Part shown: in pieces, positions 3,791-40,816 of the stretch
How positions within the stretch are numbered: the stretch's first letter is position 1
Layout of the letters: each line of letters opens with the position of its first letter
Assembly: GCA_036555615.1 (NCBI GenBank)
Contig: DATBKZ010000054.1
Span: 660 to 64,659, forward strand
Direction: 5' to 3'
DNA: 64,000 nucleotides
Origin: Burkholderiales bacterium
Lineage (GTDB): Bacteria > Pseudomonadota > Gammaproteobacteria > Burkholderiales > SG8-41
The notes under the pieces: model-generated
Told to the model about the DNA's origin: nothing
What the model saw: the letters and a program-made list of their open reading frames with translations, nothing else
Database searches by the model: none
Position numbers and translations under genes: made by a program

Positions 3791-4426
3791 CTAGCCGAAG
3801 ACAAGATCGGGCAGCGGACGCAACGACCGGCTTTCGACGAGGGGTTTGGGCACGCCGGGAAGCGCGGGAAGGCCGACGCGATTGTGCCAATAGGCGTCCA
3901 TGCCCAGTGACTTCGCCCCGAAGAGATCGAAGGGCGATCCCGCGACCATGAGGCAATCCCCGGCCTTGACGCCCAGCTCCTGGAGCGCAAGGCCGTAGGC
4001 GCGGGGATCGGGCTTGTAGCAACCGGCGCGTTCAGCGGTCACCACGCTGCTGAACGCGACGCCGGTCGCCCGGGCGGCGATCTGGCCAAGCTGCTCCGAA
4101 CAGTTGGTCACGACAGCGATCGGCATGCGGGCGCGAATTTCCTCGAGCACGGGCTTTACGTCGGGCCACGGCCGGATGTCCTGCCAGAGCGCGATCAAGC
4201 GGGCAGTCGTGCGGGACGCGAGTCCCGCCTCCACGGCGGCCTCGGCGACGATCGCTTCGTACGGCCGATAGCTTCCCGTCTGGTAGTTCTTGCGCAGATA
4301 CGCCATGCGCCACCGCCGCCCGAGCTCGGCGCTGCCGGCCGCGGCATCCCACACGCTCCATGAGTCGAGCAGCGCGGTCAGGAGATCGAACATGACGGCG
4401 CGGTATTTCGCGCGTCTGGCCGGCAC
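3791..4426 (-). CDS. HAD-superfamily hydrolase (haloacid dehalogenase type II-like)
   Basis: This is the C-terminal part of the 564-aa track ORF. The real gene begins near GTG 4426 (VPARRAKYRAVMFDLLTALLDSW), with an alternative ATG at 4393. It has the HAD motif I-like FDLLTAL and VVTNCS. The upstream extension in the track is Arg/Ala-rich high-GC read-through. Confidence 0.8.
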   Translation of the reverse strand: MPARRAKYRAVMFDLLTALLDSWSVWDAAAGSAELGRRWRMAYLRKNYQTGSYRPYEAIVAEAAVEAGLASRTTARLIALWQDIRPWPDVKPVLEEIRARMPIAVVTNCSEQLGQIAARATGVAFSSVVTAERAGCYKPDPRAYGLALQELGVKAGDCLMVAGSPFDLFGAKSLGMDAYWHNRVGLPALPGVPKPLVESRSLRPLPDLVFG

Positions 4427-4446
4427 CTTCGCTTCAGATTCCGAGG

Positions 4447-5379
4447 CTACGGGCTGCGTGTGAGGGGCGGCGGGTCCTCGCGCAGGACCTGTTCGGCGAA
4501 CCGCATGTCCACGCAGTCCTCGTAGGCAAAGCGGGTGCGGATTGCCCCGGCGCCGAGCATGGCATCGCGCAGCCACTCCAGTCCCTCGCGCTGCAGCACC
4601 GGCGAGCGGTTCCAGAGCGCGAGCGTCCGGTAGCGTTCGCAGCAGGCGGCGAGCCGCGCCGCCGGCACGTCGGAAAAATAACCGGCGATGGCTTCCGCCA
4701 GCGCGCGTCCGTCGCGCGCCGCGATCCACTTGAGGGTGCGGTACATGGCGCGCGTCATGCGCAGGACGGTGTCCGGCTCCCGCTCGATGAAGGCGCGCGT
4801 GGTGTTGAGCGAGGTGTATGCCGTCGGTCCGCGGCTCGCGGCCGCGTACCACACACGCCCCACGCCTTCCTCCATCAGCGCCTGCGCGTAGGGCTGGAAT
4901 ACCTGGATCAGGTCCACTTGCCCCGCGCGCAGCGCGGCGGCGTTCTCCGCCATGGTGCGCCCGGGCGCGAGTTTCACTGAAGAGGGGTCGATCCCGGCGC
5001 GCCGGAGATCGTGTTGCAGGCAGATCCACGGTGTCGGCACCTCGGTGACCACCGCGAGGGCCCAGCGGGGAAGCTGAGCGGGCGTGAAGCCGGGGTTCGG
5101 AGTGCGCCCGATGAGGAAGAAGGGATCGCGTCCCACGACCTCGCAAAAGGCGACGTAGCCGCACTTCGGATCCTGGTCGAGGGCGGCCAGGATCCGAAGC
5201 GGCCCGCCCCACGAGACGTGGCCCGCGCCGGCGCTGACCGCCTGCAGGGCCTTGCCGAGCACCGCGGCGGGCTTCAGCTCGACCTCGAGCCCCTCTTCCT
5301 CGTACGCGCCGAGCGCACAGGCTGCGTAGAACGGCGCGTAGAACAGCGCGCGGAAGTTCTCGATCAGGACGACGCGCAT
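4447..5379 (-). CDS. NMT1/THI5-like (NitT/TauT-type) periplasmic-binding-fold protein
   Basis: 310 aa from ATG 5379 (MRVVLIENFRALFYAPFYAACALGAYEEEGLEVELKP...). The long N-terminal extension in the track (to 6450) overlaps the hydantoinase gene and is rejected. Confidence 0.75.
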   Translation of the reverse strand: MRVVLIENFRALFYAPFYAACALGAYEEEGLEVELKPAAVLGKALQAVSAGAGHVSWGGPLRILAALDQDPKCGYVAFCEVVGRDPFFLIGRTPNPGFTPAQLPRWALAVVTEVPTPWICLQHDLRRAGIDPSSVKLAPGRTMAENAAALRAGQVDLIQVFQPYAQALMEEGVGRVWYAAASRGPTAYTSLNTTRAFIEREPDTVLRMTRAMYRTLKWIAARDGRALAEAIAGYFSDVPAARLAACCERYRTLALWNRSPVLQREGLEWLRDAMLGAGAIRTRFAYEDCVDMRFAEQVLREDPPPLTRSP

Positions 5380-34731: not shown

Positions 34732-34745
34732 TTGATCGACATCAA
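34732..34745. promoter_or_regulatory. Perfect FNR/Dnr-type box TTGAT-CGAC-ATCAA
   Basis: Read directly. The centre is about 68 nt upstream of the hemerythrin ATG (34807), in the region divergent with the DUF1330 gene. Confidence 0.55.
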
Positions 34746-34806
34746 GCCCGCCCGCGCGGCCTCGGCGGAAGATAGCTCGCCGGGCCATCCGGAGCAAAGG
34801 AATGCC

Positions 34807-35316
34807 ATGTCCAGAGCGCTCGATATCATCCGGAACGAGCACCGCTCGATCGCCGTCGTGCTGGAAAATCTTCGCCGGCTGGCGCGGGAGGGGCGCGTCC
34901 CGAAAATCAATTCCGCGGTATTCGGCGCAATGGTCAACTACCTCGAGAATTTCGCCAATCTCATCCACCATCCCAAGGAGGACGAGTACCTGTTCGCTCC
35001 CTTGCTGCGTCGCAGCGACCAGGCGGAAACGCTGATCGCCGGACTCGAGCGCGAGCATGCCGAGGGCGACCGGGCGCTGCACGGCCTCAGGACGAGCTAC
35101 GCGCGCCTGGAAGCAACGGGCGACGCGGGGCTGCCCGCGTTTGCTCGGGCGGTAGAGGATTTCGCGCGCGCCTATTACGAGCACATGCGCAAGGAGGAAG
35201 AGCAGCTGTTTCCGCTCGCGGAAAAACTGCTCACGCCCGAAGACTGGTCGGCGCTCGACCGCGCGTTCGAGGAACATCGCGACCCCATCGCCACCGGGGA
35301 GCTGAAGGCGAAGTGA
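34807..35316 (+). CDS. Hemerythrin-domain protein
   Basis: The ATG follows GGAG. The protein has MSRALDIIRNEHRSI, IHHPKEDEYLF, EREHAEGD and HMRKEEEQLFP (His/Glu/Asp iron ligand pattern). Confidence 0.85.
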   Translation: MSRALDIIRNEHRSIAVVLENLRRLAREGRVPKINSAVFGAMVNYLENFANLIHHPKEDEYLFAPLLRRSDQAETLIAGLEREHAEGDRALHGLRTSYARLEATGDAGLPAFARAVEDFARAYYEHMRKEEEQLFPLAEKLLTPEDWSALDRAFEEHRDPIATGELKAK

Positions 35317-35427
35317 CGCGGTGACGTAATCGCCGGAAAGCGTGGCCTCGCCCAGCGCCTCCTTTGCAGGCGGCCGCGGGCGTGGCAGACTGATGACCCC
35401 GAGTCACAGTCGAGGCGCGCCCAGTCC

Positions 35428-36069
35428 ATGCCGCGCGGGGCCAGTCCATTCGCTCATCTGGACGAGGCCGCGCTGCGCGCCCTGGCGCCGCGCAGCGCGG
35501 CGCGGACGTTTCCCAAGCACGCCATTTTGGTGAACGAGGGCGACGAGACCGACTCGCTCTACGTTCTGCTCTCGGGACGCGTCAAGGTGTTCGTCGCGGG
35601 TGACGACGGCCGGGAGGTGGTGGTCAACGTCATCGAGGCGGGCGACTACTTCGGCGAGCTGTCGCTCGACGGCGGCGCGCGCGCGGCATCGGTCATGACG
35701 CTGGAGCCATGCCGGCTCTTCGTGATTTCGCACGGCGACGTCGAGGGACTGCTCGCGGCGAACCCGCTGTTCGCCCGCGACTTGATCCGGAAGCTGATCG
35801 GAAAGGTACGGTCGCTCACCGGCAGGGTGCGGGATCTGGCGCTCAGGGACGTCTATGGCCGGTTTGTCAGATTCGTGGAAGAGAACGCCGTCGAGCGTGA
35901 CGGTGGCCGACTGGTGCCCGAGCGCTTGACCCAGCACGATATCGCCGCGCGCATAGGAGGCTCCCGCGAGATGGTAAGTCGCATCCTGCGCGACCTCACG
36001 GCGGGCGGCTATGTCGCGATGGACGCCAAGCAGATCCGCATTCTCAAGAAGCTTCCCCAGGACTGGTAG
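35428..36069 (+). CDS. Crp/Fnr-family transcriptional regulator (no N-terminal Cys cluster)
   Basis: 213 aa with a cNMP-binding-like domain (YVLLSGRVKVFV...GDYFGELSL) and an HTH with an E--SR recognition helix (IGGSREMVSRILRDL). Confidence 0.9.
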   Translation: MPRGASPFAHLDEAALRALAPRSAARTFPKHAILVNEGDETDSLYVLLSGRVKVFVAGDDGREVVVNVIEAGDYFGELSLDGGARAASVMTLEPCRLFVISHGDVEGLLAANPLFARDLIRKLIGKVRSLTGRVRDLALRDVYGRFVRFVEENAVERDGGRLVPERLTQHDIAARIGGSREMVSRILRDLTAGGYVAMDAKQIRILKKLPQDW

Positions 36070-36425: not shown

Positions 36426-37391
36426 TCACCGTGGCTTGATGCCGGCGGCCTTGACCACCTTGTTCCACTGCGCGATCTCGCGCCGGATGAGGCTCGCGAA
36501 CTCCTCCGGCTTGCGGTTAACCACCTCCACGCCCTGATCAGCGAGCCGGCTCACCACCTCCGGGCTGCTCGCGCCGCGCGTGAGGGCCTGATACAGGCGG
36601 TTGATGACCGGGCGCGGCGTGCCGGCGGGCGCGAGGATGCCGAACCACTGCGAGATCACGAAACCCGGCAGGCCGGACTCCCCGAAGGTCGCGACGTCGG
36701 GCAGGACCTGCAGCCGTTTCGGGGCCGTGACGCCGAGTGCGCGGAGCCGGCCGGACTTGACGTGGGGCATGGCGGACAACGCGGTGGAAACCGCGGCGGT
36801 GATTTCGCCGGAGATGAGGCTGATGAAGGCCATCCCGGAGCCCTTGAAGATCACCTGCGGCATGTCCACCCCGGCCGACTGCTTGAACAGCTCCGCCGTC
36901 ATGTGCGGGCTGGTGCCGATGCCCGGCGAGCCGAAGGTGAGCTCGCCCGGCTTTGTCTTGGCGAGCGCAATCAGGTCCTTCACGCTCCTCGCCGGGACCG
37001 AGGGGTTCACCGTCATGATCTGGAAGGCGTCCACCACAAGCGACACTGGCGCGAAATCGCGCACGGCGTCGTAGGGCATTTTCTTGATCATGCTCGGGTT
37101 GATGGTGAGCGAGGGCTGGATGATGAGCAGCGTGTAGCCGTCGGGAGTCGCTTTCGCGACGATGCCGGTGCCGATGACGCCGCTCGCGCCGCCGCGGTTG
37201 TCGACCACGACCTGCTGCCCGAGCTCGTCGCCCAGCTTCTGGGCGAGCAGGCGCGCGAGAATGTCGCTCGCGCCGCCGGGAGAGGAGGCGACCACCAGCC
37301 GGATGGGCCGGATCGGATACTTCTGCGCAACGGCGCACTCGATCCCGGAACCGAGCAGCGCGAGCGCCAGCAGGGCGACGACTCTTTTCAT
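36426..37391 (-). CDS. Bug/TctC-family substrate-binding protein
   Basis: 321-aa ORF. Its ATG overlaps the upstream CMD stop (ATGA). It has RPIRLVVASSPGGASD and VIFKGSGMAFISLISGE. Confidence 0.9.
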   Translation of the reverse strand: MKRVVALLALALLGSGIECAVAQKYPIRPIRLVVASSPGGASDILARLLAQKLGDELGQQVVVDNRGGASGVIGTGIVAKATPDGYTLLIIQPSLTINPSMIKKMPYDAVRDFAPVSLVVDAFQIMTVNPSVPARSVKDLIALAKTKPGELTFGSPGIGTSPHMTAELFKQSAGVDMPQVIFKGSGMAFISLISGEITAAVSTALSAMPHVKSGRLRALGVTAPKRLQVLPDVATFGESGLPGFVISQWFGILAPAGTPRPVINRLYQALTRGASSPEVVSRLADQGVEVVNRKPEEFASLIRREIAQWNKVVKAAGIKPR

Positions 37392-37939
37392 GGCAATCCT
37401 CCTTTTCTTGGTAATGGCCGCACTCCCAGAGTGCGGGTAAACGCCTGCATGCCGTAATGGAAGGCGATGAAGGCGCCCAGCTCCATGATTTGCGCCTCGG
37501 TGAAGTGCATCTTGCCTTCCGCGTAGAACACGCCGTCAATTTTCTCTGGATTGAGGTACATCTCGCGCGCGTAGCGCAGCGCCCATTTTTCCGCGGGGGA
37601 GAAGCGCTGGTCGCTCTCGAACTTGCCCGTCCCGGCCTCGATCGTTTTCTCGTCGAGCCCGGCCGCGCGCGCGCGCGCCGAGCGCAGGCCGGCGAAATAG
37701 GGGTCGCCCGCCGTGCGCGCGAGCTGCACGCGGATGATCTCCTTGAGACGGTGGTCCACATTGCCCGCGATGTGCGATTCGAGCAGGGCGCGGAGCAGCG
37801 CCTTCGCGTACGCCGGCACGCGCGCGAGGATAAGCGGAAAGAGTGCGTCGGGCACGCCCAGTGACTCACAGCGCCCGATCAGTTCGCGCAGCTCGGGGTC
37901 GCGGATTGCCTCAGGCTTCAGCGGCTCGATGTGCGGCAT
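37388..37939 (-). CDS. CMD/AhpD-fold protein lacking the redox Cys pair
   Basis: 183 aa from ATG 37939 (MPHIEPLKPEAIRDPELRELIGRCESLG...HRLKEIIRVQLARTAGDPYFAGLRSARARAAGLDEKTIEAG...). At the CxxC position it has D-P-Y-F. Confidence 0.8.
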   Translation of the reverse strand: MPHIEPLKPEAIRDPELRELIGRCESLGVPDALFPLILARVPAYAKALLRALLESHIAGNVDHRLKEIIRVQLARTAGDPYFAGLRSARARAAGLDEKTIEAGTGKFESDQRFSPAEKWALRYAREMYLNPEKIDGVFYAEGKMHFTEAQIMELGAFIAFHYGMQAFTRTLGVRPLPRKGGLP

Positions 37940-37976
37940 CGTCCGATCTAAGGGATGAGGGATGATGAAAGACCTG

Positions 37977-38594
37977 TCACTTCGTCGCGGCGGCCAACGA
38001 CGCAGGCACCGTGCCGTAGATGCGCGCCGACTCCTCCTGGCTGACCAGGCGCCCGTCGGGCGCGAACATCGGGTAGAACCTGAGCGTCCCGAAGAAGGTG
38101 TGATAGCCGATGTTGAAGCCGATAAAGGTACCGAGCTCGACAATCTCCTCCTCGGAATAGTGCCGGCGCAGCCCGTCGTAGAACGCGGCGTCGATTCTCG
38201 CCGGGTTGAGCGCCATCAGCTCGCTGTAACGCAACGCGAGCTTCTCGGCCTCGGTGAAGCGCGGGCTCGTCGCGTAGTCGGCGATGCCCTCGTCGATGTC
38301 GCCTTCGGTCAATCCCTGCCGCCTCGCCGAAGCGGACCGGACGTTTCCTCAGTAGACGCAGGAGGCCATGCGGGAGAGCTGCACCCGGATAATCTCCTTC
38401 AACGTGTGGCTGACGCGGCCGGTATTGAAGATGGTGTCCCAGGCGACGAACATCGCCTCGCACAGGTCGACGTTGTGGCCCATCATCGCGTGGAAGCCCG
38501 GGTCGGGCGCGCGGTGCTGGAGGCACTTGTCGATATAGGGCCGGAGCTTGGTCTTCCTCAGCTCCTCGATGTCGAGCATGGTGATGTTCGGCAT
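37977..38594 (-). CDS. AhpD/CMD-fold protein with an in-frame TGA (38351-38349) at the second Cys of the CxxC motif; candidate selenoprotein (alternative reading: nonsense pseudogene)
   Basis: Track ORFs 38349..38897 (real start ATG 38594) and 37977..38312 are in the same frame. The joined product is 205 aa: ...HTLKEIIRVQLSRMASCVY[TGA]GNVRSASARRQGLTEGDIDEG.... It is collinear with the paralog at 37388-37939. Confidence 0.6.
38319..38340 (-). promoter_or_regulatory. Candidate SECIS-like hairpin 9-30 nt 3' of the in-frame UGA
   Basis: The minus strand reads CCGGUCCGC-UUCG-GCGAGGCGG. By hand this gives 8 pairs with two single-nt bulges and a UUCG tetraloop. It was not folded computationally. 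Confidence 0.3.
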
Positions 38595-38664: not shown

Positions 38665-38678
38665 TTGATCTGGGTCAA
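38665..38678. promoter_or_regulatory. Near-consensus FNR-type box TTGAT-CTGG-GTCAA (9/10)
   Basis: It lies in the 160-bp divergent region between the TGA-containing AhpD-like gene (start 38594) and the BamE-like lipoprotein gene (start 38755). Confidence 0.35.
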
Positions 38679-38754: not shown

Positions 38755-39183
38755 ATGAACAAGCGCTTGTGGCTCGCACTGCTGCCCATGATATTGGCGG
38801 GTTGCATGACGGCCCCGGAGCATCGTGCCGCGGTCGAGGGCGAGGGAACCGACCGCCTGACGGTCGGCAAGGTCCAGCGCGAGATCCGCGTGGGCATGAC
38901 CGGGGCGGAGGTGGTTCAGGTGCTCGGTACTCCGAACATCGTCAGCACGGACGAGGAGCGCCGCGAGGTCTGGGTCTATGACCGGGTATCCACCACGACA
39001 GTGCATTCGGAGAGCCGCGCCGGCGTCCTGGCGCTGGTTTTCGGCGGAAGCGGCGGTGCGCTGGGCGGTGTCGGCGGCGACGCCGGCGCGCGCAGCACGA
39101 CACAGCGCACCCTCACGGTCATCATCAAATTCGACAAGGACTCGCGCGTCCGGGACTTCGCCTACCACGCCAGCCAGTTCTGA
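38755..39183 (+). CDS. BamE/SmpA/OmlA-like lipoprotein with a Gly-rich tail
   Basis: ATG 38755 follows GAAGGAG. It has a lipobox (MILAGC), the SmpA_OmlA-like block LTVGKVQREIRVGMTGAEVVQVLGTPN...EVWVYD, and the Gly-zipper-like FGGSGGALGGVGGDAGA. Confidence 0.7.
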   Translation: MNKRLWLALLPMILAGCMTAPEHRAAVEGEGTDRLTVGKVQREIRVGMTGAEVVQVLGTPNIVSTDEERREVWVYDRVSTTTVHSESRAGVLALVFGGSGGALGGVGGDAGARSTTQRTLTVIIKFDKDSRVRDFAYHASQF

Positions 39184-39194
39184 CGGGGGCGGCG

Positions 39195-39764
39195 ATGAAG
39201 CGCCGTGTGGACCTCCGCGCTCCGTCGCTGCTTGCTGCCGCGGTGGTGCTGGCTGTGAGCGCGGTGGCGTGCGCCCCGGGCACCGGGAAGAAGGAGGTGC
39301 AGCCGCGGCCGGAGCTGGCGGCGGACCGGGAGCTGCAGGCGCGGCGCTTCGAGGGCATCAGCGAGGAGAAGCTGCTGGCTGCATCCGTTGGCGTGCTGCA
39401 GGACCTCGGATTCACGATCACGGTTGCCGATGCCGAGATTGGAATGGCGACCGGCGTCAAGGACCGAGATGCGAAAGCGCCCGAACAGAGGGCCGCCGTG
39501 ATCGTCCTCATGATCCTGCTCACTGCGGCATCCGGGCATGCACCGCCGACCGGCGACATGAGAGAGGAGCAAACAATCAGGGTATTGCTGACGACACGCC
39601 CTGTCCGGGGCAGCAGCGACGCCTACGAAGTGCGGGTGACATTCCACCGGTTCCTGCGCCAGCCCCTGGTCGTCGAGGCTGGCGGCTTCCGTGACCCGAG
39701 GCTGTACGAGGGATTCTTCGAGCTTCTGTCCAAGGCGATCTTTCTGGAGGCACACAGACTGTGA
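39195..39764 (+). CDS. Uncharacterised lipoprotein, paralog A
   Basis: 189 aa with a signal and Cys (AVSAVAC). The shared core is LQARRFEGISEEKLLAASVGVLQDLGFTITVADAEIGMATG...VRVTFHRF...DPRLYEGFFELLSKAIFLEAH. Confidence 0.65.
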   Translation: MKRRVDLRAPSLLAAAVVLAVSAVACAPGTGKKEVQPRPELAADRELQARRFEGISEEKLLAASVGVLQDLGFTITVADAEIGMATGVKDRDAKAPEQRAAVIVLMILLTAASGHAPPTGDMREEQTIRVLLTTRPVRGSSDAYEVRVTFHRFLRQPLVVEAGGFRDPRLYEGFFELLSKAIFLEAHRL

Positions 39765-40213
39765 ACCGAAACAGCGCCATCCTCATCCTGGCGGCGCTCG
39801 CCTGCATACCCGCGCTGTCATCGTGTGCGTCGTCCCCCGAGAGCGGGGTCCTGTCGAGTCCCGAAAGCCAGTTGAAGCTGCGCAGCATCCAGTCGCGCGC
39901 CTACGACACTACCGACCGGCTGATGGTGCTGAGAGGCGTGGTCGCCACGCTGCAGGACCTCGAGTTCATGATCGAGGCGGCCGATGCTGCGCTGGGGTTG
40001 GTGACGGCGCGGAAGCTTCTGCTGCCCAGGGACACGCTCCTCGGAAGCAACTTGATGCTGACGGTGACGGTGCGTCCGCGCGGGGAGAAGCAGATGCTGG
40101 TGCGGCTCAACGCGGAGTTCAACCGGCGCGCAGTTGAGGACCCGGAGGTTTACCAGAGCTTCTTCGTGGCGCTCGGCAGGACTCTGTTCATGAGCGGGCA
40201 CGAGGTCGATTGA
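39761..40213 (+). CDS. Uncharacterised lipoprotein, paralog B
   Basis: 150 aa. Its GTG overlaps the preceding stop (GTGA). It has a good lipobox (ALSSC). The core is IQSRAYDTTDRLMVLRGVVATLQDLEFMIEAADAALGLVTA...VRLNAEFN...DPEVYQSFFVALGRTLFMSGH. Confidence 0.7.
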   Translation: MNRNSAILILAALACIPALSSCASSPESGVLSSPESQLKLRSIQSRAYDTTDRLMVLRGVVATLQDLEFMIEAADAALGLVTARKLLLPRDTLLGSNLMLTVTVRPRGEKQMLVRLNAEFNRRAVEDPEVYQSFFVALGRTLFMSGHEVD

Positions 40214-40216
40214 GCC

Positions 40217-40816
40217 GTGCGCCGTGTTGGCCGGGTTTTCCGCTTGCCGGGGGGTGGCATCGCCCACGCGTCCGGCTTGCTGCGGCTTCTCGCGCTGGTG
40301 GTGCTGCTGCTCTTCGCGCACGGGTGTGCCACCGAGCCAAAGCTGGCGCAGTTGATGCAGGTCGGGCCGGAAGCGGCGGCCAACCGGGCGTTACAGACGC
40401 GACGGTTCAGTGAAGTGAGCGAGGCCGAATTGCTCGCGGCCTGCGTCAGCGTATTGCAGGATCTTGGCTTTCGCATTACGGCATCGGAAGCGCGGCTCGG
40501 CGTGGTAACCGGCGACAAGCCCCGGTCCGACGCGGACATGCTCGCCGACGTCGGCCGCCTGAGTCTCCTTGCCGGCATTACGATGGGGCTCCACCCGGAA
40601 CTCTCCAAGGGGTTTGCCGATAGCTTCGGCGTCGTGCTGGCGACGCGAGGCGTCGGCGGCGGGGCGCGCGTTCACGAAACCAGAGCCACTTTTTATCGGG
40701 GGTACGTCGGCGGGTACGGCGGGAGACACGCCGTGCTCATCACGAGCCCGGTGCTCTATCAGCGGTTTTTCGGCATGGTCGATACGACGCTGGCCCGAAC
40801 GCGCTCCGGCAACTGA
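40217..40816 (+). CDS. Uncharacterised lipoprotein, paralog C
   Basis: 199 aa, starting 4 nt after the previous stop. It has a signal and Cys (LLFAHGC). The core is LQTRRFSEVSEAELLAACVSVLQDLGFRITASEARLGVVTG...TRATFYRG...SPVLYQRFFGMVDTTLA. Confidence 0.6.
   Translation: MRRVGRVFRLPGGGIAHASGLLRLLALVVLLLFAHGCATEPKLAQLMQVGPEAAANRALQTRRFSEVSEAELLAACVSVLQDLGFRITASEARLGVVTGDKPRSDADMLADVGRLSLLAGITMGLHPELSKGFADSFGVVLATRGVGGGARVHETRATFYRGYVGGYGGRHAVLITSPVLYQRFFGMVDTTLARTRSGN

What the first reader, a model, noticed from the sequence alone, without database searches (positions are those of the whole stretch)
38755..40816. Tightly coupled four-gene lipoprotein operon: BamE-like protein plus three mutually paralogous lipoproteins I cannot assign
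- Four consecutive plus-strand genes are separated by 11 nt, a 4-nt GTGA overlap and 3 nt. Each encodes a signal peptide ending in Cys.
- The first gene has a SmpA/OmlA (BamE-like) block and a Gly-zipper tail.
- The next three are clear paralogs of one another.
  - Shared N-terminal core: R(R/A)(F/Y)...LL.A...VLQDLGF.I....A.LG..TG.
  - Shared C-terminal core: VR..F......P.(L/V)Y..FF..L......
- Paralogs A and C carry an extra hydrophobic middle segment (AAVIVLMILLTAASG and LSLLAGITMGL).
- I do not recognise the family. The arrangement suggests a hetero-oligomeric envelope complex.
- A near-consensus FNR-type box lies in the upstream divergent region (38665-38678).
Basis: seen in the sequence. 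Interest (0 to 1): 0.7.

Follow-up and report, generated by a model that had tools for sequence, protein, structure and literature searches.

The report
Conserved BamE-like/BamC-like lipoprotein operon
Four tightly packed genes encode membrane-anchored lipoproteins built from the same folds as two helper proteins of the outer-membrane protein-assembly machine (BamE and BamC); the first three form an unnamed gene trio found in the same order across more than ten bacterial phyla, and its function is unknown.

Summary
Four + strand genes (38755-39183, 39195-39764, 39761-40213, 40217-40816) are separated by 11 nt, a 4-nt GTGA overlap and 3 nt. Each starts with a signal peptide ending in Cys.

- **Gene 1** is a BamE-superfamily lipoprotein (Pfam above threshold). 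Its Gly-rich stretch is an internal loop of variable length, not a tail.
- **Genes 2-4** are true paralogs with no Pfam, NCBIfam, PADLOC or PDB sequence match. AlphaFold models of genes 2 and 3 both match the N-terminal helix-grip domain of BamC best, and a profile comparison gives weak support in the same register.
- **Distribution:** genes 1-2-3 occur in that order in every complete fetched locus, across Proteobacteria, Planctomycetota, Verrucomicrobiota, Nitrospirota, Spirochaetota and others. They have no conserved neighbours. The trio also sits on an 8-kb Acinetobacter plasmid. Gene 4 is a Burkholderiales-only addition.
- **Complex formation (inferred):** supported by stop/start overlaps in most loci and a recurring gene 2-gene 3 fusion.
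- **Regulation:** the FNR-type box is real. It is conserved upstream of gene 1 in all nine Burkholderiales-clade loci, and a Crp/Fnr-family regulator lies 2.7 kb away.

Function is untested. My best guess is a self-contained, membrane-associated lipoprotein complex for envelope homeostasis. No published description was found.

The parts
38665..38678 (.). FNR/FixK-type box TTGATCTGGGTCAA. Its centre lies 83.5 nt upstream of the g1 ATG, in the 160-nt divergent intergenic region.
   Evidence: It is one of two matches in the window against 0.06 expected. A TTGA-N6-TCAA box with at most 1 mismatch lies within 200 nt upstream of g1 in all 9 Burkholderiales-clade loci, including those with a different upstream gene.
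38755..39183 (+). g1: BamE-superfamily lipoprotein of 142 aa, with lipobox LAGC (Cys17).
   Evidence: Pfam BamE 27.9 bits against a 23.2 cut-off. All 26 orthologs tested hit BamE. The g1 family profile matches PDB BamE chains at E 3.6e-5.
39019..39090 (+). Gly/Ala-rich insertion in g1 (residues 89-112), between the first and second strands of the BamE fold.
   Evidence: The ortholog alignment shows the insertion varies from about 4 to 25 residues, while the flanks are invariant. No Gly-zipper Pfam family matched at E<=1.
39195..39764 (+). g2: long paralog, a lipoprotein of 189 aa (Cys26) with a single BamC-N-like helix-grip domain.
   Evidence: AlphaFold model with pLDDT 83. The top Foldseek hits are BamC N-terminal domain entries, E 6e-5, TM 0.52-0.54 on the target. 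546 homologs, none with a Pfam domain.
39492..39536 (+). Conserved uncharged hydrophobic helix inserted in g2 (residues 100-114, AAVIVLMILLTAASG).
   Evidence: An uncharged run of 7-22 residues (12-22 in 39 of 40) is present in all 40 g2 orthologs examined, and the best 11-residue window has hydropathy 2.3-3.5. The model places a helix at residues 96-113.
39761..40213 (+). g3: short paralog, a lipoprotein of 150 aa (Cys22) with the minimal helix-grip domain and no hydrophobic insert.
   Evidence: AlphaFold model with pLDDT 80.5. The top 13 Foldseek hits are all BamC chains, E 1.7e-7 to 1.5e-5, about 20% identity. hhalign against a BamC alignment gives E 1.1e-4.
40217..40816 (+). g4: third paralog of 199 aa, g2-like, with Cys37 in the atypical lipobox FAHGC. 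It is a lineage-specific addition.
   Evidence: BLASTP to g2 gives 6e-20. A fourth family gene is present only in Burkholderiales relatives L003-L005 and L007-L011.
40559..40591 (+). Hydrophobic insert of g4 (residues 115-125, LSLLAGITMGL).
   Evidence: Alignments.
35428..36069 (+). Crp/Fnr-family transcription factor, a candidate reader of the box. The link to the operon is inferred.
   Evidence: Pfam cNMP_binding (3e-23) and HTH_Crp_2 (4.6e-9). The recognition helix reads REMVSR, the E-x-x-S-R pattern of FNR-type regulators (sequence; the pattern is from established knowledge).

Best explanation
**What is shown**
- The locus is a translationally coupled operon for four Sec-exported lipoproteins.
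- Genes 1-3 are one copy of a widespread, self-contained three-gene module:
  - g1 is a BamE-fold lipoprotein.
  - g2 is a 'long' single-domain lipoprotein.
  - g3 is a 'short' single-domain lipoprotein.
- In g2 and g3 the domain has the fold of the BamC N-terminal helix-grip domain. They may also be remotely homologous to it.
- g4 is an extra g2-like copy found only in this Burkholderiales lineage.

**What is inferred**
- After lipidation the proteins are probably sorted to the inner leaflet of the outer membrane. None has Asp at +2.
- They probably assemble into a hetero-oligomer around a g2-g3 pair plus g1, with g4 as an added or alternative g2-type subunit.
- The conserved uncharged helix of g2 and g4, and the hydrophobic start of the g1 loop, are too hydrophobic for a soluble surface. 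They are also too short and wrongly placed to span a membrane. They probably dip into the leaflet or form the subunit interface.
- The module needs no dedicated partner genes and moves horizontally as a unit.
- In this lineage transcription is likely driven from a Crp/Fnr-type box upstream of g1.

**Likely role, the weakest step**
- An accessory envelope complex for outer-membrane homeostasis or biogenesis under a redox or low-oxygen signal.
- It would act at the membrane surface, as BamE and the KA1-like fold do. It is not itself BamE or BamC.
For: - **Gene structure and lipoboxes:**
- **BamE superfamily for g1:**
- **Paralogy of g2-g4:**
- **Fold:**
  - Two independent models (pLDDT 83 and 80.5) both have BamC N-terminal domain as best PDB match.
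  - hhalign of the g3 family against BamC aligns g3 residues 59-139 with BamC 118-202. The score is 35.8, against a column-shuffled null of mean 13.9 and maximum 23.2 (n=200).
- **Synteny:**
  - g1-g2-g3 are in the same order and on the same strand in 79 non-redundant loci from more than ten phyla. The remaining two loci are cut at a contig end after g2.
  - No flanking gene family is shared by more than 5 loci.
- **Coupling:** g2 and g3 overlap by 4 nt in 47 of 79 loci and by 11 nt in 9 more.
- **Fusion and duplication:**
  - A g2-g3 fusion protein, P0122, has three cluster members on three contigs.
  - Duplications occur as g2'-g3' pairs.
- **Hydrophobic insert:** conserved in every g2 ortholog examined.
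- **Mobility:** the trio is cargo on an 8-kb Acinetobacter baumannii plasmid. It also sits next to an IS5 on an Azospirillum plasmid.
- **Regulation:**
  - The box is rare in the window.
  - It is conserved in 9 of 9 clade loci.
  - A Crp/Fnr-family regulator and a second, perfect box lie 3-4 kb upstream.
Against: - No complex prediction or experiment was possible, so assembly is inferred only from genomic linkage.
- Outer-membrane localisation rests on the E. coli +2 rule, which does not hold for all taxa.
- Foldseek TM-scores are moderate (about 0.5), and the hhalign probability is only 56%.
- The same fold occurs in AMPK/KA1 domains and in DUF4468, so the fold alone does not point to BAM.
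- In the one fusion locus read (L090), no g1 is visible upstream, although a scaffold gap intervenes.
- No ECF or sigma-E-type promoter signal was found that would tie the module to envelope stress.
- The nearby regulator has only one Cys, so it is not an oxygen-sensing FNR. Its link to this box is untested.
Confidence: 0.55

Rival explanations
1. The module is an alternative or ancestral set of BAM accessory lipoproteins. g1 and the BamC-like paralogs would dock on BamA/BamD, or on another Omp85 machine. There they would replace or supplement canonical BamE and BamC, in this lineage under Crp/Fnr control.
For: Both folds in the operon are those of the two small BAM lipoproteins, which sit together in the BamCDE subcomplex (the subcomplex is established knowledge). 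The module is present in phyla usually said to lack BamC and BamE (that absence is my own knowledge, not tested here). One family member, P0233, carries a C-terminal TPR domain, and BamD is a TPR lipoprotein.
Against: g2-g4 lack the long N-terminal BamD-binding segment of BamC, with only 12-22 residues between the Cys and the first helix. g1 scores 20.8 against a cut-off of 93 for the BamE equivalog model. The trio is never next to bamA, bamD or any other conserved gene.
Confidence: 0.18
2. The helix-grip paralogs are lipid- or hydrophobic-ligand-binding proteins of the START/Bet v 1 type. They would carry or sense a lipid at the periplasmic face, with g1 as an adaptor.
For: Weaker Foldseek hits include Bet v 1/START-like proteins such as PYL9, MtN13, CoxG, PRELID and major latex protein. 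KA1 domains with the same fold bind acidic phospholipids, and BamE binds phosphatidylglycerol (both established knowledge). g2 has a conserved hydrophobic helix.
Against: The START-like hits have poor E-values (0.003 to 0.08) and low TM-scores (0.2-0.35) compared with BamC and KA1. BamC and KA1-type domains have no ligand cavity (established knowledge). No cavity analysis could be done here.
Confidence: 0.12
3. The proteins are periplasmic immunity proteins against lipid- or envelope-targeting toxins, like the BamE-like immunity proteins described for Lipocone toxins.
For: A BamE-like fold is used by membrane-anchored immunity proteins (PMC12419801). The module is mobile and sits on a small plasmid.
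Against: Those immunity proteins are described as rapidly evolving. g1 is instead 44-64% identical between phyla and has 19 invariant positions. No toxin-like or other conserved neighbour exists. PADLOC gave no hit.
Confidence: 0.05
4. The four genes are functionally independent lipoproteins that happen to be adjacent, or some are gene-calling artefacts.
For: None beyond the absence of direct interaction data.
Against: Every one of the 79 non-redundant loci that was not cut off has the same order. Stop/start overlaps are the rule. A fusion exists. All four have conserved homologs.
Confidence: 0.02

Closest known systems
BamE (SmpA/OmlA; Pfam PF04355), the small lipoprotein of the beta-barrel assembly machine
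   Same: g1 is a lipoprotein of similar size. It matches the Pfam BamE domain above threshold. Its best PDB sequence hits are BamE chains, followed by BLIP, which shares the fold.
   Different: g1 is far below the equivalog threshold, 20.8 against 93 bits. It carries a variable Gly/Ala-rich insertion between strands. It is always followed by the two paralog genes, which canonical bamE is not. It also occurs outside Proteobacteria.
BamC (NlpB; Pfam PF06804), N-terminal helix-grip domain (PDB 2YH6, 2LAF)
   Same: It is the best structural match for both modelled paralogs, at about 20% identity for g3. A profile comparison aligns the same domain in the same register, well above a shuffled null. 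BamC is also a lipoprotein.
   Different: The Pfam BamC model gives no hit at E<=1. Each paralog has one domain rather than two. The long N-terminal BamD-binding segment is missing. g2 and g4 have a hydrophobic helix inserted between strands 3 and 4.
KA1 / AMPK alpha C-terminal domains
   Same: They share the small two-helix, antiparallel-sheet fold, with TM up to 0.64 on the target. KA1 domains act at membrane surfaces (established knowledge).
   Different: They are eukaryotic and cytosolic, with 7-13% identity and no sequence signal. This is very likely fold resemblance only.
DUF4468 (PDB 4E6F, Bacteroides ovatus)
   Same: It is a bacterial protein of unknown function with a related fold (E 6e-4 to 2e-3).
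   Different: Identity is about 10%, there is no Pfam hit, and the domain is larger.
Glycine-zipper outer-membrane lipoproteins (SlyB/Pcp type)
   Different: No Gly-zipper Pfam family matched. The Gly-rich loop of g1 is nearly absent in several orthologs, so it is not a defining feature.

Membership tests
BamE superfamily (Pfam PF04355) | Match to the Pfam BamE domain at or above the gathering score | tested here: met
   g1 scores 27.9 bits against 23.2. All 26 orthologs match at E<=0.01.
BamE proper (NCBIfam NF008585 equivalog) | Score at or above the equivalog cut-off of 93 bits | tested here: not met
   20.8 bits.
BamE proper | Physical association with BamA POTRA5 and BamD | not testable with these tools
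   No interaction data. No bamA or bamD gene lies near the trio in any of 81 loci.
BamC (Pfam PF06804) | Sequence match to the family model | tested here: not met
   No hit at E<=1 for g2, g3 or g4.
BamC | Helix-grip fold of the globular domain | tested here: met
   BamC N-domain chains are the best Foldseek PDB hits for both models (E 6e-5 and 1.7e-7; TM on the target 0.46-0.54).
BamC | Long unstructured N-terminal segment that binds BamD, followed by two helix-grip domains | tested here: not met
   Each mature protein has one domain, and only about 12-22 residues separate the lipidated Cys from the first helix. The BamC architecture is from established knowledge (PDB 3TGO, 2YH6, 2YH5).
BamC | Remote homology detectable by profile comparison | tested here: inconclusive
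   hhalign gives probability 56% and E 1.1e-4 in the correct domain and register. The real score is 35.8, against a shuffled maximum of 23.2. The BamC alignment was enterobacterial only, so its diversity was low.
Bacterial lipoproteins (PROSITE PS51257-type lipobox) | Signal peptide with [LIVMFWSTAG](2)-[LIVMFYSTAGCQ]-[AGS]-C | tested here: met
   g1, g2 and g3 pass. g4 fails on His at -2, but its Cys is conserved and orthologs have canonical boxes. No LipoP or SignalP run was available.
FNR/FixK-type regulated promoter | TTGAT-N4-ATCAA box at a promoter-compatible distance, conserved in relatives | tested here: met
   The box matches 9 of 10 consensus bases. It is rare in the window and conserved in 9 of 9 clade loci, 55-93 nt before the ATG. 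Binding and the transcription start are untested.
Glycine-zipper lipoproteins (SlyB/Pcp) | Conserved Gly-zipper hairpin (Pfam Gly-zipper families) | tested here: not met
   No Pfam hit. The loop length varies from about 4 to 25 residues.
   None of them appears among the top 50 Foldseek hits for either model.

The most novel reading that the evidence does not exclude
The trio is a previously unrecognised BamE/BamC-type accessory module. It would dock on BAM, or on another Omp85-family machine, in many phyla that lack canonical BamC and BamE. It would represent either the ancestral form from which BamC's tandem helix-grip domains arose or a horizontally spread alternative set. In this Burkholderiales lineage it would be switched on by a Crp/Fnr-family regulator.
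Probability: 0.15. Interest if true: 0.8.

Novelty: new variant of a known kind. Interest (0 to 1): 0.55.

Why it matters
**What is known and what is not.** BamC and BamE are the least understood parts of the outer-membrane protein-assembly machine. They are usually described as restricted to Proteobacteria (my own knowledge, not tested here).

**What this locus adds.**
- Here a BamE-fold lipoprotein and BamC-domain-like lipoproteins form a fixed three-gene unit.
- The unit has no family name. NCBI's pipeline annotates its genes as 'hypothetical protein'.
- It occurs in at least 469 species genomes across more than ten phyla, which is a lower bound, and it even travels on a small plasmid.
- It therefore gives a compact, genetically tractable system for asking what these two folds do together. 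Azospirillum brasilense and the Acinetobacter plasmid are candidate hosts.
- It also gives a possible evolutionary link for BamC.

**Limits.** If the module has nothing to do with BAM, it is still a widespread envelope module of unknown function that deserves a family definition. The finding is descriptive, because no function has been shown.

Tried and rejected
- **Sequence searches for g2-g4.** Pfam, NCBIfam and PADLOC scans, and both single-sequence and profile PDB searches, gave nothing usable.
- **Conserved neighbours.** All-against-all clustering of 774 flanking ORFs from the fetched loci found no family shared by more than 5 loci, and those 5 were close relatives.
- **Promoter motifs.** Sigma-E/ECF, sigma-54 and sigma-70 patterns upstream of g1 in 76 loci were not enriched over shuffles. 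Only the FNR-type box was, and mainly in one clade.
- **Terminator-like site inside g1 (39017-39034).** One was found against 1.4 expected, so it is chance.
- **Base composition.** There is no GC anomaly, hence no sign of recent acquisition in this genome.
- **Literature.** Five searches (BamE-like or BamC-like lipoprotein operons, helix-grip paralogs, BamE/BamC in Planctomycetes/Verrucomicrobia, OmlA with FNR) found no description of this trio.
- **BamC homolog search.** The last homolog search, for BamC, listed only enterobacterial sequences of at least 81% identity. The BamC profile was therefore shallow.
- **Gly-zipper reading of g1.** Rejected because the loop is not conserved.
- **Transmembrane reading of the g2 helix.** Rejected because the helix lies inside one folded domain, with both halves modelled at pLDDT of about 96, and is only 7-22 uncharged residues long (12-22 in 39 of 40 orthologs).
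- **SECIS search.** Folding the RNA behind the in-frame TGA of the neighbouring CMD gene gave no structure beyond shuffles. Rfam found no match, and the window holds no tRNA gene.
Full report

Yes. The ORF table and the sequence show four + strand genes:

| Gene | Coordinates | Length |
|---|---|---|
| g1 | 38755-39183 | 142 aa |
| g2 | 39195-39764 | 189 aa |
| g3 | 39761-40213 | 150 aa |
| g4 | 40217-40816 | 199 aa |

- They are separated by 11 nt, a 4-nt GTGA overlap and 3 nt.
- Each product begins with a basic stretch, a hydrophobic stretch and a Cys.
- Under a PROSITE PS51257-style rule, g1 (LAGC), g2 (AVAC) and g3 (LSSC) qualify as lipoproteins.
- g4 (FAHGC) fails on His at -2. Its Cys is nevertheless conserved in orthologs that have LASGC, LAGC or LTGC.
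- None has Asp at +2.
- The start of g4 could be GTG at 40217 or TTG at 40277. Either start gives a signal peptide.

**2. The first gene**

- g1 matches Pfam BamE above the gathering score, 27.9 against 23.2 bits.
- All 26 orthologs from other phyla that I tested match too.
- The profile of the g1 family finds E. coli BamE chains in the PDB at E 3.6e-5, followed by BLIP, which has the same fold.
- g1 is not BamE proper. The NCBIfam equivalog model gives 20.8 bits against a cut-off of 93.
- The Gly-rich stretch (residues 89-112) lies between conserved strands, so it is not a tail.
- Its length ranges from about 4 to 25 residues among orthologs, and it is almost absent in six of those shown. It is therefore not a defining glycine zipper.

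**3. The three paralogs**

Paralogy:
- BLASTP gives g2-g4 6e-20 (38% identity), g2-g3 2e-9 and g3-g4 1e-8.
- The g2-family and g3-family profiles match with probability 99.9%.

No named family by sequence:
- None of the three matches Pfam, NCBIfam, PADLOC or any PDB sequence.
- Public records call the homologs 'hypothetical protein' or 'lipoprotein'.
- The family is sizeable. It has 546 hits with g2 as query, and 2157 cluster representatives at 50% identity with E<=0.001.

Fold:
- AlphaFold models of g2 (pLDDT 83) and g3 (pLDDT 80.5) give one strand-helix-strands-helix domain.
- Both models have the N-terminal helix-grip domain of E. coli BamC as best PDB match. For g2 the E-value is 6e-5. For g3 the E-values run from 1.7e-7 to 1.5e-5, at about 20% identity, and the top 13 hits are all BamC chains. 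TM-scores on the target are 0.46-0.54.
- Next come AMPK/KA1 domains and DUF4468.

Profile comparison with BamC:
- hhalign of the g3 family against an enterobacterial BamC alignment aligns g3 residues 59-139 with BamC 118-202. That is the same domain in the same register. The E-value is 1.1e-4 and the probability 56%.
- Two hundred column-shuffled controls gave mean 13.9, sd 2.5 and maximum 23.2. The real scores were 32.3 and 35.8.
- I read this as a shared fold with probable but unproven remote homology.
- The paralogs lack BamC's long N-terminal BamD-binding segment and its second domain, so they are not BamC.

**4. The hydrophobic inserts**

- g2 residues 100-114 (AAVIVLMILLTAASG) form a helix between strands 3 and 4 of the model.
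- An equivalent uncharged run of 7-22 residues (12-22 in 39 of 40), with 11-residue hydropathy of 2.3-3.5, is present in all 40 g2 orthologs examined. It is absent from g3.
- g4 has a weaker one (LSLLAGITMGL).
- The g4-like genes of a second Burkholderiales subgroup have an aromatic-rich insert instead.
- The helix sits inside one folded domain and is short, so I do not think it spans a membrane.
- Either a monotopic dip into the leaflet or a buried subunit interface fits better. This is an inference.

**5. Distribution and synteny**

- A scan of one genome per species found at least 469 species with a relative.
- I called ORFs in the 80 best loci and scored them with the family profile and the four window proteins.
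- Every locus has g1, then a g2-type gene, then a g3-type gene on one strand. Two loci are cut at a contig end after g2.
- The taxa include Burkholderiales, Gamma- and Alphaproteobacteria (Azospirillum, Magnetospirillum, Inquilinus), Desulfobacterota, Syntrophia, Bdellovibrionota, Planctomycetota and Verrucomicrobiota. They also include Nitrospirota, Nitrospinota, Spirochaetaceae, Latescibacterota, Balneolales, Hydrogenedentota and Binatia.
- A fourth family gene occurs only in the Burkholderiales relatives.
- Six loci, five alphaproteobacterial and one from Comamonadaceae, carry an extra g2'-g3' pair upstream.
- No flanking gene family is shared beyond close relatives.
- The trio is also the main cargo of an 8-kb Acinetobacter baumannii plasmid. 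In Azospirillum brasilense it lies next to an IS5 on a 704-kb plasmid.
- In this window the GC content matches the flanks.

**6. Evidence that the products work together**

- The gene order is fixed.
- g2 and g3 overlap by 4 nt in 47 of 79 loci and by 11 nt in 9 more.
- Duplication occurs as g2'-g3' pairs.
- A g2-g3 fusion protein exists in which the g3 signal peptide is replaced by a short linker. Its cluster has three members on three contigs.
- I could not run a multimer prediction, so assembly remains inferred.

**7. Regulation**

- TTGATCTGGGTCAA (38665-38678) matches 9 of 10 consensus positions of the FNR box. It is one of two matches in 64 kb against 0.06 expected.
- A TTGA-N6-TCAA box with at most one mismatch lies 55-93 nt before the likely g1 ATG in all nine Burkholderiales-clade loci. 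This holds even where the upstream gene differs.
- Across all 76 loci analysed, 13 have such a box against 5.4 in shuffles.
- The other box in the window is a perfect TTGATCGACATCAA at 34732-34745. It precedes a hemerythrin-domain gene.
- A Crp/Fnr-family regulator with an E-x-x-S-R recognition helix follows at 35428-36069.
- That regulator has a single Cys, so it is not an iron-sulfur oxygen sensor. 'Low oxygen' is a plausible signal but not a demonstrated one.

**8. How it most likely works**

Shown:
- a coupled operon of four lipoproteins;
- a BamE-fold subunit;
- three BamC-N-fold paralogs;
- a conserved, self-contained and mobile three-gene core;
- a conserved Crp/Fnr-type box.

Inferred:
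- the proteins sit on the periplasmic face of a membrane, probably the outer membrane;
- they form a hetero-oligomer around a g2-g3 pair plus g1;
- they use the hydrophobic insert for membrane contact or assembly.

Guessed:
- the role is accessory envelope homeostasis or biogenesis under a redox-related signal.

Rival explanations:
- A true BAM accessory set. The missing BamD-binding segment, the patchy and plasmid-borne distribution and the lack of linkage to bam genes argue against it.
- START-like lipid binding. Those structural hits are weak.
- Toxin immunity. g1 is far too conserved, and no toxin gene is nearby.
- Unrelated neighbours. The synteny excludes this.

**9. Novelty**

- The folds are known.
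- The g2-g4 family, the fixed trio and its breadth across phyla are not named in Pfam or NCBIfam.
- They were not found in the searchable literature.
- I rate it a new variant of a known kind and of moderate interest, because the function is unknown.

Noticed in passing
window 37977-38594 (- strand); TGA at 38349-38351: A carboxymuconolactone decarboxylase (CMD/AhpD-like) gene, divergent from g1, is interrupted by one in-frame TGA (…SRMASCVY-TGA-GNVRS…). The TGA aligns exactly with the second Cys of the CxxC motif of homologs (TCPVC, GCAFC). It is therefore either a CxxU selenoprotein candidate or a pseudogene. No SECIS-like fold stands out over shuffles (z=+0.5), Rfam gives no hit, and the window holds no tRNA gene.
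   Followed up: partly
window 34732-36069: A perfect FNR box, TTGATCGACATCAA (34732-34745), precedes a hemerythrin-domain gene (about 34807-35316). A Crp/Fnr-family regulator gene follows at 35428-36069. Together with the box at 38665 this suggests a small local regulon.
   Followed up: partly
L087 4892-6277 (Acinetobacter baumannii plasmid CP061710.1, 7989 bp): The g1-g2-g3 trio is carried on an 8-kb Rep-type plasmid beside a RelE/ParE toxin-antitoxin pair and a SulP transporter. All three genes are annotated as hypothetical.
   Followed up: yes
L026, L029, L031, L055, L064, L072: These loci carry an extra g2'-g3' pair directly upstream of g1-g2-g3, making five genes. The paralog pair therefore duplicates as a unit.
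   Followed up: partly
P0122 / L090 2986-3882; P0233: P0122 is a natural g2-g3 fusion with three cluster members. In L090 a scaffold gap lies upstream, so the presence of g1 is unknown. P0233 is a g2-type protein with a C-terminal TPR extension.
   Followed up: partly
L001 1949-6964 (Inquilinus limosus): The trio lies just downstream of dapD and dapE (with truA between, on the opposite strand). In E. coli bamC lies directly after dapA (L085). This may be coincidence, as it was seen only in the two Inquilinus loci, L001 and L039.
   Followed up: no
L007-L011, fourth gene (e.g. L008 about 3890-4486): A second type of g4-like paralog replaces the hydrophobic insert with an aromatic-rich one (FWQGYWQTMRNTFTFQWH).
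   Followed up: no
window 37388-38143 (- strand): A second CMD-family paralog sits next to the TGA-containing one. It has no Cys at the CxxC position (TAGDPYF) and scores just below the Pfam cut-off, 22.5 against 23 bits.
   Followed up: no
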